From assembly GCF_009914755.1 (NCBI RefSeq), contig NC_060935.1: 64,000 bases of DNA; one strand, 5' to 3'. Shown here one piece after another: positions 38,540-45,062 of this stretch (its first letter is position 1; each line of letters opens with the position of its first letter). The notes below the pieces were generated by a model, which saw only the letters and a program-made list of their open reading frames with translations, was not told the DNA's origin and did no database searches. The position numbers and the translations under genes are program-made. Source of the DNA: the human T2T-CHM13v2.0 reference genome, Homo sapiens.

Positions 38540-39429
38540 CTTTGTGGTTTTATCTACCTTTGGTCTTTGATGATGGTGATGTACAGATGGGTTTTTGGTG
38601 TGGATGTCCTTTCTGTTTGTTAGTTTTCCTTCTAACAGAGAGGATCCTCAGCTGCAGGTCTGTTGGAATACCCTGCCATGTGAGGTGTCAGTGTGCCCCT
38701 GCTGGCGGGTGCCTGCCAGTTAGGCTGCTCGGGGGTCAGGGACCCACTTGAGGAGGCAGTCTGCCCGTTTTCAGATCTCCAGCTGCGTGCTGGGAGAACC
38801 ACTGCTCTCTTCAAAGCTGTCAGACAGGGACATTTAAGTATGCAGAGGTTACTGCTGTCTTTTTGTTTGTCTGTGCCCTGTCCCCAGAGGTGGAGCCTAC
38901 AGAGGCAGGCAGGCCTCCTTGAGCTGTGGTGGGCTCCACCCAGTTCGAGCATCGGGGCTGCTTTGTTTACCTAAGCAAGCCTGGGCAATGGCGGGCGCCC
39001 CTCCCCCAGCCTCGCTGCCGCCTTGCAGTTTGATCTCAGACTGCTGTGCTAGCAATCAGCGAGACTCCGTGGGCATAGGACCCTCTGAGCCAGGTGCGGG
39101 ATATAATCTCGTGGTGCACCGTTTTTTAAGCCAGTCTGAAAAGCGCAATATTCGGGTGGGAGTGACCCGATTTTCCAGGTGAGTCCGTCACCCCTTTCTT
39201 TGACTCGGAAAGGGAACTCCCTGACCCCTTGCACTTCCCAAGTGAGGCAATGCCTTGCCCTGCTTCGGCTCGTGCAAACCCACTGACCTGCGCCCACTGT
39301 CTGGCACTCCCTAGTGAGATGAACCCGGTACCTCAGATGGAAATGCAGAAATCACCCATCTTCTGCGTCGCTCACGCTGGGAGCTATAGACCGGAGCTGT
39401 TCCTATTCGGCCATCTTGGCTCCTCCTTC
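38540..39429 (-). promoter_or_regulatory. L1 5'UTR internal promoter and antisense promoter, CpG-rich (unit 1)
   Basis: YY1 motif (gccatctt on +), RUNX3-region motif gtacctcagatggaaatgca and many retained CpGs. Confidence 0.9.
38988..39182 (+). CDS. ORF0: L1 antisense ORF0, 64 aa (C-terminally shortened)
   Basis: MAGAPPPASLPPCSLISDCCASNQRDS...VTRFSR*; splice donors at 39093/94 and 39178/79. Confidence 0.75.
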   Translation: MAGAPPPASLPPCSLISDCCASNQRDSVGIGPSEPGAGYNLVVHRFLSQSEKRNIRVGVTRFSR

Positions 39430-42400
39430 GCCACATTTTCTTAATCCAGTCTATCGTTGTTGGACATTTGGGTTGGTTCCAAGTCTTTGCTATTGTGAAT
39501 AGTGCCACAATAAACATACGTGCGCATGGGTCTTTATAGCAGCATGATTTATAATCCTTTGGGTATATACCCAATAATGGGATTGCTGGGTCAAATGGTA
39601 TTTCTAGTTCTAGATCCCTGAGGAATCGCCACACTGACTTCCACAATGGTTGAACTAGTTTACAGTCCCACCACCAGTGTAAAAGTGTTCCTGTTTCTCC
39701 ACATCCTCTCTAGCACCTGTTGTTTCCTGATTTTTAATGATTGGCATTCTCACTGGTGTAAGATGGTATCTCATTGTGATTTTGATTTGCATTTCTCTGA
39801 TGGCCAGTGATGATGAGCATTTTTTCATGTGTCTGTTGGCTGCATAAATGTCTTCTTTTGAGAAGTGTCTGTTCATATCCTTCGCCCACTTGTTGATGGG
39901 GTTGTTTGTCTTTTTCTTGTAAATTTGTTTGAGTTCATTGTAGATTCTGGATATTAGCCCTTTGTCAGATGAGTAGATTGCAAAAATTTTCTCCCATTCT
40001 ATAGGTTGGCTGTTCACTCTGATGGTAGTTTCTTTTGCTGTGCAGAAGCTCTTTAGTTTAATTAGATCCCATTTGTCAATTTTGTCTTTTATTGCCATTG
40101 CTTTTGGTGTTTTGGACATGAAGTCCTTGCCCATGCCTATGTCCTGAATGGTAATGCCTAGGTTTTCTTCTAGGGTTTTTATGGTTTTAGGTCTAACGTT
40201 TAAGTCTTTAATCCAACTTGAATTGATTTTTGTGTAAGGTGTAAGGAAGGGATCCAGTTTCAGCTTTCTACATATGGCTAGCCAGTTTTCCCAGCACCAT
40301 TTATTAAATAGGGAATCCTTTCCCCATTGCTTGTTTTTCTCAGGTTTGTCAAAGATCAGATAGTTGTAGATATGCGGCGTTATTTCTGAGGGCTCTGTTC
40401 TGTTCCATTGATCTATATCTCTGTTTTGGTACCAGTACCATGCTGTTTTGGTTACTGTAGCCTTGTAGTATAGTTTGAAGTCAGGTAGTGTGATGCCTCC
40501 AGCTTTGTTCTTTTGGCTTGGGATTGCCTTGGCGATGCAGGCTCTTTTTTGGTTCCATATGAACTTTAAAGTAGTTTTTTCCAATTCTGTGAAGAAAGTC
40601 ACTGGTAGCTTGATGGGGATGGCATTGAATCTGTAAATTACCTTGGGCAGTATGGCCATTTTCACGATATTGATTCTTCCTACCCATGAGCATGGAATGT
40701 TCTTCCATTTGTTTGTATCCTCTTTTATTTCCTTGAGCAGTGGTTTGTAGTTCTCCTTGAAGAGGTCCTTCACATCCCTTGTAAGTTGGATTCCTAGGTA
40801 TTTTATTCTCTTTGAAGCAATTGTGAATGGGAGTTCACTCATGATTTGGCTCTCTGTCTGTTGTTGGTCTATAAGAATGCTTGTGATTTTTGTACATTGA
40901 TTTTGTATCCTGAGAGTTTGCTGAAGTTGCTTATCAGCTTAAGGAGATTTTGGGCTGAGACAATGGGGTTTTCTAGATATACAATCATGTCATCTGCAAA
41001 CAGGGACAATTTGACTTCCTCTTTTCCTAATTGAATACCCTTTATTTCCTTCTCCTGCCTGATTGCCCTGGCCAGAACTACCAACACTATGTTGAATAGG
41101 AGTGGTGAGAGAGGGCATCCCTGTCTTGTGCCAGTTTTCAAAGGGAGTGCTTCCGGTTTTTGCCCATTCAGTATGATATTGGCTGTGGGTTTGTCATAGA
41201 TAGCTCTTATTATTTTGAAATACGTCCCATTAATACCTAATTTATTGAGAGTTTTTAGCATGAAGGGTTCTTGAATTTTGTCAAAGGCCTTTTCTGCATC
41301 TATTGAGATAATCCTGTGGTTTTTGTCTTTGGCTCTGTTTATATGCTGGATTACATTTATTGATTTGCGTATATTGAACCAGCCTTGCATCCCAGGGATG
41401 AAGCCCACTTGATCATGGTGGATAAGCTTTTTGATGTGCTGCTGGATTCGGTTTGCCAGTATTTTATTGAGGATTTTTGCATCAATGTTCATCAAGGATA
41501 TTGGTCTAAAATTCTCTTTTTTTGTTGTGTCCCTGCCCGGCTTTGGTATCAGAATGATGCTGGCCTCATAAAATGAGTTAGGGAGGATTCCCTCTTTTTC
41601 TATTGATTGGAATAGTTTCAGAAGGAATGGTACCAGTTCCTCCTTGTACCTCTGGTAGAATTCGGCTGTGAATCCATCTGGTCCTGGACTCTTTTTGGTT
41701 GGTAAACTATTGATTATTGCCACAATTTCAGCTCCTGTTATTGGTCTATTCAGAGATTCAACTTCTTCCTGGCTTAGTCTTGGGAGAGTGTATGTGTCGA
41801 GGAATGTATCCATTTCTTCTAGATTTTCTAGTTTATTTGCGTAGAGGTGTTTGTAGTATTCTCTGATGGTAGTTTGTATTTCTGTGGGATCGGTGGTGAT
41901 ATCCCCTTTATCATTTTTTATTGTGTCTATTTGATTCTTCTCTCTTTTTTTCTTTATTAGTCTTGCTAGTGGTCTATCAATTTTGTTGATCCTTTCGAAA
42001 AACCAGCTCCTGGATTCATTAATTTTTTGAAGGGTCTTTTGTGTCTCTATTTCCTTCAGTTCTGCTGTGATTTTAGTTATTTCTTGCCTTCTGCTAGCTT
42101 TTGAATGTGTTTGCTCTTGCTTTTCTAGTTCTTTTAATTGTGATGTTAGGGTGTCAATTTTGGATCTTTCCTGCTTTCTCTTGTGGGCATTTAGTGCTAT
42201 AAATTTCCCTCTACACACTGCTTTGAATGTGTCCCAGAGATTCTGGTATGTTGTGTCTTTGTTCTCGTTGGTTTCAAAGAACATCTTTATTTCTGCCTTC
42301 ATTTCGTTATGTATCCAGTAGTCATTCAGGAGCAGGTTGTTCAGTTTCCATGTAGTTGAGCGGTTTTGAGTGAGATTCTTAATTCTGAGTTCTAGTTTGA

Positions 42401-44172: not shown

Positions 44173-45062
44173 CTTTGTGGTTTTATCTACCTTTGGTCTT
44201 TGATGATGGTGATGTACAGATGGGTTTTTGGTGTGGATGTCCTTTCTGTTTGTTAGTTTTCCTTCTAACAGAGAGGATCCTCAGCTGCAGGTCTGTTGGA
44301 ATACCCTGCCATGTGAGGTGTCAGTGTGCCCCTGCTGGCGGGTGCCTGCCAGTTAGGCTGCTCGGGGGTCAGGGACCCACTTGAGGAGGCAGTCTGCCCG
44401 TTTTCAGATCTCCAGCTGCGTGCTGGGAGAACCACTGCTCTCTTCAAAGCTGTCAGACAGGGACATTTAAGTATGCAGAGGTTACTGCTGTCTTTTTGTT
44501 TGTCTGTGCCCTGTCCCCAGAGGTGGAGCCTACAGAGGCAGGCAGGCCTCCTTGAGCTGTGGTGGGCTCCACCCAGTTCGAGCATCGGGGCTGCTTTGTT
44601 TACCTAAGCAAGCCTGGGCAATGGCGGGCGCCCCTCCCCCAGCCTCGCTGCCGCCTTGCAGTTTGATCTCAGACTGCTGTGCTAGCAATCAGCGAGACTC
44701 CGTGGGCATAGGACCCTCTGAGCCAGGTGCGGGATATAATCTCGTGGTGCACCGTTTTTTAAGCCAGTCTGAAAAGCGCAATATTCGGGTGGGAGTGACC
44801 CGATTTTCCAGGTGAGTCCGTCACCCCTTTCTTTGACTCGGAAAGGGAACTCCCTGACCCCTTGCACTTCCCAAGTGAGGCAATGCCTTGCCCTGCTTCG
44901 GCTCGTGCAAACCCACTGACCTGCGCCCACTGTCTGGCACTCCCTAGTGAGATGAACCCGGTACCTCAGATGGAAATGCAGAAATCACCCATCTTCTGCG
45001 TCGCTCACGCTGGGAGCTATAGACCGGAGCTGTTCCTATTCGGCCATCTTGGCTCCTCCTTC
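44173..45062 (-). promoter_or_regulatory. L1 5'UTR (unit 2)
   Basis: Copy of 38540-39429. Confidence 0.9.
44621..44815 (+). CDS. ORF0: L1 ORF0, 64 aa (unit 2)
   Basis: Copy of 38988-39182. Confidence 0.75.
   Translation: MAGAPPPASLPPCSLISDCCASNQRDSVGIGPSEPGAGYNLVVHRFLSQSEKRNIRVGVTRFSR

What the first reader, a model, noticed from the sequence alone, without database searches (positions are those of the whole stretch)
38988..45062. Each antisense promoter fires into the neighbouring L1 body: built-in antisense/dsRNA geometry
Known: the primate L1 5'UTR has an antisense promoter whose transcripts normally exit into flanking unique DNA. Seen: here the upstream flank of every 5'UTR is the ORF2/ORF1 of the next unit. 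Inference: antisense transcripts would be kilobases of anti-L1PA2 RNA, complementary to sense RNA from the adjacent unit and to young L1 mRNAs genome-wide. This makes the array a candidate dsRNA, endo-siRNA or piRNA source, or a trans-silencing locus whose strength scales with copy number.
Basis: inference. Interest (0 to 1): 0.7.

Follow-up and report, generated by a model that had tools for sequence, protein, structure and literature searches.

The report
Tandem LINE-1 array with inward-facing promoters
This already-reported human array of 17 near-identical LINE-1 retrotransposon copies has each copy's backward-facing promoter pointing into LINE-1 sequence, but strong splice-site motifs and a poly(A) motif 80 bases past every junction would likely keep most such RNA short or discard it as intron, so a major silencing-RNA source is possible but unlikely.

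Summary
The geometry is real; the function is unproven and probably overstated. The window holds the low end of a head-to-tail, minus-strand L1PA2-like array: 17 5' ends, period 5633 bp, units about 99.96% identical. A May 2026 preprint already describes it (0-15 copies per haplotype) without mentioning antisense transcription. The sequence points to its origin: a full-length L1 inserted near the end of ORF2 of an older same-strand L1 (13-bp target-site duplication), and unequal crossing-over then likely multiplied a chimeric unit. The antisense-promoter motifs match young L1s, so 16 of 17 promoters face a whole neighbouring unit. But the first ~580 nt of read-through would be older host L1. 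The only + strand AATAAA of each unit lies 80 nt past all 17 junctions, and one ORF0 splice donor is a 9/9 consensus match. Antisense RNA would therefore likely be ~0.5-0.7 kb or spliced, with the L1 bodies as nuclear intron. Similar single junctions occur elsewhere (11 of 11 loci checked). Clustering could still favour local dsRNA. No expression data could be examined. Copy-number-scaled trans-silencing: about 10%.

The parts
33425..39429 (-). Unit 1: terminal full-length guest L1 (L1PA2-like), the only copy with a 3'UTR and poly(A) tail; ORF1 intact, ORF2 broken into several frames
   Evidence: 3'UTR carries GAG and A where comparators L032/L034 carry ACA and G (meaning of these diagnostics recalled)
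33041..33424 (-). 3' remainder of the older host L1 (end of ORF2, 3'UTR, A tail), 88.3% identical to the guest 3' end
33412..33424 (-). 3' copy of the 13-bp target-site duplication (AAGAAAATATGGC)
39430..39442 (-). 5' copy of the target-site duplication (AAGAAAATGTGGC, one mismatch), preceded by TT (TT/AAGA endonuclease-type site, recalled); the same junction occurs 17 times
38540..39429 (-). 5'UTR of unit 1 (890 nt): sense promoter and antisense promoter. YY1, both RUNX3 and both SOX sites are identical to two ACA-type L1s; 29 CpG versus 36-38; 9-nt and 7-nt gaps; three substitutions near +486-490
   Evidence: alignment; site positions from PMC3192792
38840..39040 (+). Antisense promoter region (L1 +400 to +600), firing towards the next unit; activity predicted, not shown
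   Evidence: positions from PMC3192792; mapping
38988..39182 (+). ORF0, 64 aa (71 aa in L031, L032 and L034; also 64 aa in L030)
39091..39099 (+). First ORF0 splice donor, ORF0 nt 106, CAG|GTGCGG (7/9 consensus)
   Evidence: two ORF0 donors per PMC4859970
39176..39184 (+). Second ORF0 splice donor, ORF0 nt 191, CAG|GTGAGT (9/9 consensus; CAG|GTGCGT in L031, L032 and L034)
39430..40009 (-). Host-derived end of unit 2 (unit positions 5054-5633): older L1 ORF2 sequence, the first sequence that read-through antisense RNA would copy
39509..39514 (+). Sole + strand AATAAA of the unit, 80 nt past the junction, present at 17 of 17 junctions; candidate antisense poly(A) signal
40303..40308 (+). Sole + strand ATTAAA, 874 nt past the junction
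39430..45062 (-). Unit 2: chimeric 5633-bp repeat unit (guest 1-5053, host 5054-5633), no 3'UTR; ORF1 at 43156-44172 intact
45063..50695 (-). Unit 3
50696..56328 (-). Unit 4
56329..61961 (-). Unit 5; the one unit of 17 whose ORF1 has a premature stop (codon 49)
61962..64000 (-). 3' part of unit 6; the array continues about 68 kb beyond the window to C11:94248304

Best explanation
This is a head-to-tail array of 17 near-identical L1PA2-like copies, likely made by unequal crossing-over after one L1 inserted into an older same-strand L1, and its inward-pointing antisense promoters are a likely by-product whose RNA would mostly be spliced or cut short rather than build up as kilobase anti-L1 RNA. 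Shown: nested insertion with a 13-bp target-site duplication; chimeric units that switch from guest to host sequence at about unit position 5054; promoter motifs, two splice donors and an AATAAA 80 nt past every junction. Inferred: (1) non-allelic recombination between guest ORF2 and the 2.75-kb homologous host remnant founded the repeat, and further unequal exchange expanded it recently. (2) The promoters are probably methylated in most tissues. (3) When active, antisense transcripts would either end about 0.5-0.7 kb from their start or splice from the ORF0 donors, leaving the L1 bodies as nuclear intron bound by repressive proteins. (4) Any dsRNA would be mainly local and nuclear, and a small share of the cell's antisense L1 RNA.
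For: Period, copy number and identity: (mean 2.0 differences per 5633 bp over 120 pairs of the 16 internal units). TSD and host remainder. Mosaic top remnant (host-like 2886-3613 at 93.6%, guest-like 3614-5053 at 99.9%, host-like 5054-5633) shows at least two exchange or conversion events. AATAAA is the only canonical hexamer on the + strand of a unit, at 17 of 17 junctions, and conserved at about 5560-5570 in all 4 full-length comparators. Donors. ASP transcripts are typically low-level spliced chimaeras (609 of 988 had one EST; PMC4908685). RBPs assemble on over 100,000 LINEs in transcripts, mostly antisense L1 (PMC6108849). The 17 promoters are about 0.5% of ~3200 ORF0 loci (count). Copy number runs 0-15 across 94 haplotypes (PMC13192797), which argues against an essential role. 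Deleting a 170-kb mouse L1-rich cluster gave no abnormal phenotype (PMC5848613 abstract; a cluster of independent insertions, so only loosely comparable).
Against: No RNA, methylation or small-RNA data were available, so steps 2-4 are untested. That this AATAAA is the 'major antisense poly(A) signal' of Wheelan 2005 is recalled; the paper was not held and no source giving its position turned up. The array copy has two substitutions in the GU-rich stretch after the hexamer. MATR3/PTBP1 repress poly(A) and splice sites in antisense L1, and a strong upstream donor may suppress nearby cleavage (U1 telescripting, recalled); both favour read-through. A spliced-out intron is still kilobases of nascent antisense RNA beside sense promoters. 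My crude scan found just one strong acceptor per unit (window 41960), so the splice partner is unknown. The 17 promoters are about 5% of the 362 full-length L1PA2 quoted, which is not negligible.
Confidence: 0.6

Rival explanations
1. Local self-silencing or conditional dsRNA: read-through antisense RNA (from the antisense promoters or from the host lncRNA intron) meets sense RNA from neighbouring units at the clustered locus. This gives polymerase collision, nuclear dsRNA with A-to-I editing, heterochromatin in cis, and perhaps innate-immune dsRNA on demethylation, without meaningful repression of other L1s.
For: Convergent sense and antisense promoters 5.6 kb apart, repeated 16 times. Units are 99.96% identical. 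Clustered tandem copies gave fourfold more siRNA than dispersed ones in a yeast synthetic RNAi system, where read-through was not stopped by terminator cassettes (PMC3918874). The predicted + strand lncRNA LOC105369435 spans the array (hub annotation). Internal units lack a 3'UTR, so sense RNA can also read through.
Against: Sense RNA meets 15 AATAAA per unit. [quoted passage not shown] No data show either strand is expressed here.
Confidence: 0.2
2. One reading: the array is a dual-strand piRNA/endo-siRNA source that silences young L1s in trans, with strength set by copy number, like Drosophila telomeric HeT-A/TART arrays.
For: Geometry and intact motifs. About half of ORF-region 28-mers match ACA-type L1s perfectly. 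HeT-A/TART arrays are transcribed on both strands and yield rasiRNAs of both polarities (PMC2615633). L1 bidirectional 5'UTR transcription has been linked to siRNA (as reviewed in PMC3868326 and PMC4936614).
Against: AATAAA at +80 and strong donors. The proximal 580 nt is older host L1 with 24-28% 28-mer matches. Zero-copy haplotypes exist. The search for a piRNA cluster at this locus returned no relevant paper. The background of antisense L1 RNA is large.
Confidence: 0.1
3. The array matters, if at all, on the sense strand, as a copy-number-variable source of ORF1p; the antisense side is inert.
For: 16 of 17 units keep an intact 338-aa ORF1 and sense-promoter motifs, while ORF2 is broken. The preprint also notes retained 5'UTR and ORF1.
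Against: The units are almost identical and recently expanded, so the intact ORF1s reflect one intact founder, not selection. No expression data.
Confidence: 0.1

Closest known systems
Chromosome 11 tandem LINE-1 array (hs1 chr11:94,140,954-94,254,695; PMC13192797, bioRxiv May 2026)
   Same: The same locus: back-to-back units, 16 in hs1 plus flanking L1PA2 and L1P1 copies, 0-15 per haplotype, 5'UTR and ORF1 retained.
   Different: Its main text has 0 occurrences of 'antisense', 'dsRNA' and 'piRNA'. The section and passages read give no nested-insertion origin, TSD or chimeric breakpoint. It labels the units L1HS, but over positions 1-5053 they are near-identical to the terminal copy, whose 3'UTR has non-Ta diagnostics.
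Human L1 antisense promoter / ORF0 transcripts (Speek; Criscione PMC4908685; Denli via PMC4859970)
   Same: Promoter at +400-600, ORF0 start and two donors at ORF0 nt 106 and 191 are present.
   Different: The flank is L1 rather than unique DNA; ORF0 is 64 aa; the second donor is a full consensus match.
Drosophila telomeric HeT-A/TART/TAHRE arrays (PMC2615633)
   Same: Arrays of non-LTR elements (head-to-tail layout recalled) with internal antisense promoters; their antisense RNAs are also spliced.
   Different: Built by repeated transposition to chromosome ends, with demonstrated rasiRNA production and a host role. This array likely arose by recombination, is interstitial, can be absent, and has no small-RNA evidence.
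L1-L1 non-allelic homologous recombination and nested L1 insertions
   Same: Same-strand homologous L1 segments, TSD-flanked nested insertion, crossover inside ORF2.
   Different: The usual outcome is one deletion or duplication; here the duplication seeded a ~99-kb variable tandem repeat.

Membership tests
L1PA2-like full-length LINE-1 | ~900-nt 5'UTR without the ~125-129-nt segment of older L1PA, ORF1, ORF2, 3'UTR, poly(A), TSD | tested here: met
   Terminal copy: 890-nt UTR, 338-aa ORF1, A tail, 13-bp TSD. Older relatives show a ~125-nt extra block at query 765. L1PA2 versus young L1PA3 not resolved, as no subfamily library was available.
L1HS-Ta | ACA trinucleotide and G diagnostic in the 3'UTR (recalled) | tested here: not met
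   Terminal copy has GAG and A; L032 and L034 have ACA and G; about 96.7% identity to them.
Recombination-born tandem array from a nested insertion | TSD around the founder, chimeric units with a homologous crossover, near-identical units | tested here: met
L1 antisense-promoter locus | Intact promoter region, transcription-factor sites, ORF0 start and donors | tested here: met
   three substitutions near +486-490 have unknown effect
L1 antisense-promoter locus | Demonstrated antisense transcription from this locus | not testable with these tools
   no RNA data
Dual-strand piRNA cluster / endo-siRNA locus (HeT-A/TART-like) | Sequence potential for overlapping sense and antisense RNA | tested here: met
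   convergent promoters in 16 of 17 units
Dual-strand piRNA cluster / endo-siRNA locus (HeT-A/TART-like) | Long unprocessed antisense precursor | tested here: inconclusive
   AATAAA at +80 and strong donors argue against; RBP repression and weakened downstream element argue for
Dual-strand piRNA cluster / endo-siRNA locus (HeT-A/TART-like) | Locus-derived 21-30-nt RNAs bound to PIWI/AGO, with 1U/ping-pong signature and trans-silencing | not testable with these tools
   no small-RNA data; literature search returned nothing relevant
Hairpin (inverted-repeat) endo-siRNA locus | Long inverted repeat within the transcript | tested here: not met
   0 inverted repeats of 20 bp or more in 38900-45100; an opposite-strand older L1 lies ~9.5 kb beyond the array

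The most novel reading that the evidence does not exclude
A human counterpart of the Drosophila HeT-A/TART arrays: when demethylated (germline, embryo, tumours), the clustered convergent promoters make long L1 dsRNA or small RNAs, so that an individual's 0-16 copies per haplotype set the dose of L1 repression or of viral-mimicry interferon response. It would be a natural copy-number experiment on whether L1 antisense transcription controls L1 in humans.
Probability: 0.1. Interest if true: 0.75.

Novelty: new variant of a known kind. Interest (0 to 1): 0.3.

Why it matters
The array itself is in print. What this adds is a sequence-level origin (nested insertion, then unequal crossing-over), a likely subfamily correction, and a sharp prediction of where antisense RNA should stop or splice. 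Because the junction is locus-specific and copy number varies 0-15 among haplotypes, the old question of whether L1 antisense transcription produces regulatory dsRNA in human cells can be tested here with existing long-read, 3'-end and small-RNA data. A negative result would make it an ordinary recombination-born repeat.

Tried and rejected
Assembly artefact or chance: rejected; units carry distinct variants and HPRC haplotypes show the array. Independent insertions at one site: rejected; only one 3'UTR and one TSD pair exist, and all junctions are identical. L1HS identity: rejected on recalled 3'UTR diagnostics. Hairpin or structured-RNA source: no inverted repeat, no Rfam hit, unremarkable folding. 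Selection for ORF1: not supported, units are too alike to test. PTBP1-like CU motif enrichment on the antisense strand: 265 observed versus a simulated mean of 243 and maximum of 312, so not beyond composition. The nested-insertion hotspot paper (PMC2836564, passages) showed nothing on this particular site. The primary papers on the antisense poly(A) signal, the promoter start sites and ORF0 were not held, so those positions rest on secondary sources or recall. The preprint's supplements could not be read, so the idea that its two unit groups reflect two founding crossovers stays untested. TSDs and 3' host remainders at the 11 other junction loci were not checked.
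Full report
Observation. Self-BLAST of the window shows a tandem repeat from about 33.8 kb to the window's end with a 5633-bp period. ORF listing shows L1 ORF1 and broken ORF2 pieces on the - strand in each period. L1 5' ends lie at 39429, 45062, 50695, 56328 and 61961. A junction probe against the own genome found 17 copies at 99-100% among 40 scored matches, and the fetched continuation gave 17 5' ends, C11:94155429-94245556. The 16 internal units differ by a mean of 2.0 positions (120 pairs, maximum 7, from the lists). 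16 of 17 keep an intact ORF1. The finding's span runs from the ORF0 ATG of unit 1 to the 5' end of unit 2, so the geometry it describes is real for 16 of 17 promoters; the last faces a 2.75-kb ORF2 remnant.

Prior description. PMC13192797 (bioRxiv, May 2026; I read search passages and section 10 whole; its two supplements were unreadable and may bear on unit structure) reports this array: 16 back-to-back copies in hs1, 0-15 across 94 haplotypes, and two unit groups that never mix on a haplotype. Its main text has no 'antisense', 'dsRNA' or 'piRNA'. Searches listed no paper that, by title or abstract start, treats antisense transcription or small RNA at this locus; the library lacks most subscription journals, and one search listed only 40 of 583 papers.

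Origin. Only the terminal copy has a 3'UTR and A tail. It is followed by AAGAAAATATGGC and 384 nt of an older L1 3' end (88.3% identical), while every 5' end is preceded by TT-AAGAAAATGTGGC: a 13-bp target-site duplication with one mismatch. Internal units match the terminal copy up to position 5053 and then differ at 29 sites in the last 580 nt, which match the host remnant at the top of the array. That remnant is itself mosaic: host-like at 2886-3613, guest-like at 3614-5053 (1434 of 1435 identical), and host-like again to 5633. The inference is a nested same-strand insertion, then at least two recombination or conversion events, then recent unequal exchange. The terminal copy has GAG/A in its 3'UTR where two ACA-type comparators have ACA/G (diagnostics recalled), and it lacks the extra ~125-nt UTR block seen in older relatives.

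Uniqueness of the geometry. An exact junction pattern gave 33 matches: 17 in the array and 16 elsewhere, with 0 for the control. I fetched 11 non-array loci chosen from the best hits; all 11 show an L1 5' end joined to another same-strand L1 at about position 5634, and 6 of 11 keep the antisense AATAAA within 150 nt. Four of the 11 are among the 16 pattern hits; the other 12 pattern hits were not checked. A promoter facing L1 ORF2 is thus recurrent. What is special here is the 16-fold repetition with whole, near-identical neighbours.

Would long antisense RNA form? Promoter sites at the positions given in PMC3192792 (passages) are identical to two ACA-type L1s; CpGs are 29 versus 36-38, and three substitutions lie near +486-490. 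Downstream on the + strand lie donors at ORF0 nt 106 (7/9 consensus) and nt 191 (9/9; the same base ends ORF0 at 64 aa, as in L030). The unit's only AATAAA lies 80 nt past the junction, at 17 of 17 junctions; 0.53 are expected per unit and 1.9% of simulations have one in the first 200 nt. It is a conserved L1 feature, present at about 5560-5570 in all 4 full-length comparators, and it sits there because the insertion site does. I recall it as the major antisense poly(A) signal of Wheelan 2005, but could not read that paper or find its position in print. If used, transcripts would be about 0.5-0.7 kb. Against this: two substitutions alter the GU-rich stretch behind it, and MATR3/PTBP1 repress poly(A) and splice sites in antisense L1 (PMC6108849, passages and section 10). 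Only one strong acceptor passed my crude filter. The predicted lncRNA LOC105369435 spans the array on the + strand (hub annotation; exon 3 ends in a GT donor; exon 4's place was not given), so antisense L1 RNA could also arise without these promoters.

Would it reach other L1s? I fetched 3 of 438 ACA-pattern matches; two are full length. Perfect 28-mer sharing with those two is 48-58% in the ORFs, 20-36% in the 5'UTR and 24-28% in the host segment. Trans-targeting is possible in sequence terms, but weakest where read-through starts. The 17 promoters compare with ~3200 ORF0 loci and 362 full-length L1PA2 (PMC4908685, passages), and with over 100,000 LINEs in transcripts, mostly antisense L1. 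The same eLife paper notes that endo-siRNAs are under-represented at mammalian somatic sense-antisense pairs. No hairpin, Rfam family or unusual folding was found. Other papers seen as passages only: PMC4859970, PMC4936614, PMC3868326, PMC2836564, PMC5848613 (abstract and passages; 57, 62), and PMC4249732, PMC2768975, PMC6466679, PMC2176070 (nothing used).

Verdict. A known, recently expanded, recombination-born L1 array whose antisense geometry is real and apparently undiscussed. Best reading (0.6): a by-product, with short or spliced antisense RNA. Local or conditional dsRNA 0.2; trans-silencing small-RNA locus 0.1; ORF1p source 0.1. Interest 0.3, mainly because the locus-specific junction and natural copy-number variation make the question directly testable.

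Noticed in passing
G000 C1, C5, C6, C7, C8, C9, C11, C23; loci L019-L029: L1 5' ends recur at the same ORF2 site (about position 5634) of other same-strand L1s: 16 non-array pattern hits, and 11 of 11 fetched loci confirmed. A likely L1-in-L1 insertion hotspot; each such site could seed a similar array.
   Followed up: partly
L016:7102-10000 and L017:1-3236 (C11:94255102-94261236): A full-length older L1 (about 91-92% identical over aligned bases, ~1000-nt 5'UTR) on the + strand, ~9.5 kb beyond the top 5' end. With the array it forms an inverted pair inside the LOC105369435 span, a possible fold-back dsRNA source.
   Followed up: partly
G000 C2:94009106-94027681 and C2:94297887-94309662: Two groups of three ACA-type L1 3' ends on the same strand, 5.5-12 kb apart; possibly another duplicated L1 cluster, perhaps in centromeric repeat.
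   Followed up: no
window 39176-39184 (+); L030: The base that makes the second ORF0 donor a full consensus also ends ORF0 at 64 aa; the same state occurs in an unlinked GAG-type L1 on C18, so it may mark a sublineage.
   Followed up: partly
window 37523-38539 and repeats: 16 of 17 units keep an intact ORF1 behind an intact-looking sense promoter; a copy-number-variable ORF1p reservoir.
   Followed up: partly
unit positions 4115 and 4175: The terminal copy and the top remnant share one state at these two sites and all 16 internal units share the other, which helps order the recombination events.
   Followed up: partly
window 6972-11965 and 16958-18815: Older L1 fragments upstream of the array: 6972-11965 on the + strand (68-83% to the array, opposite orientation) and 16958-18815 on the - strand (73%), also within the lncRNA span.
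   Followed up: no
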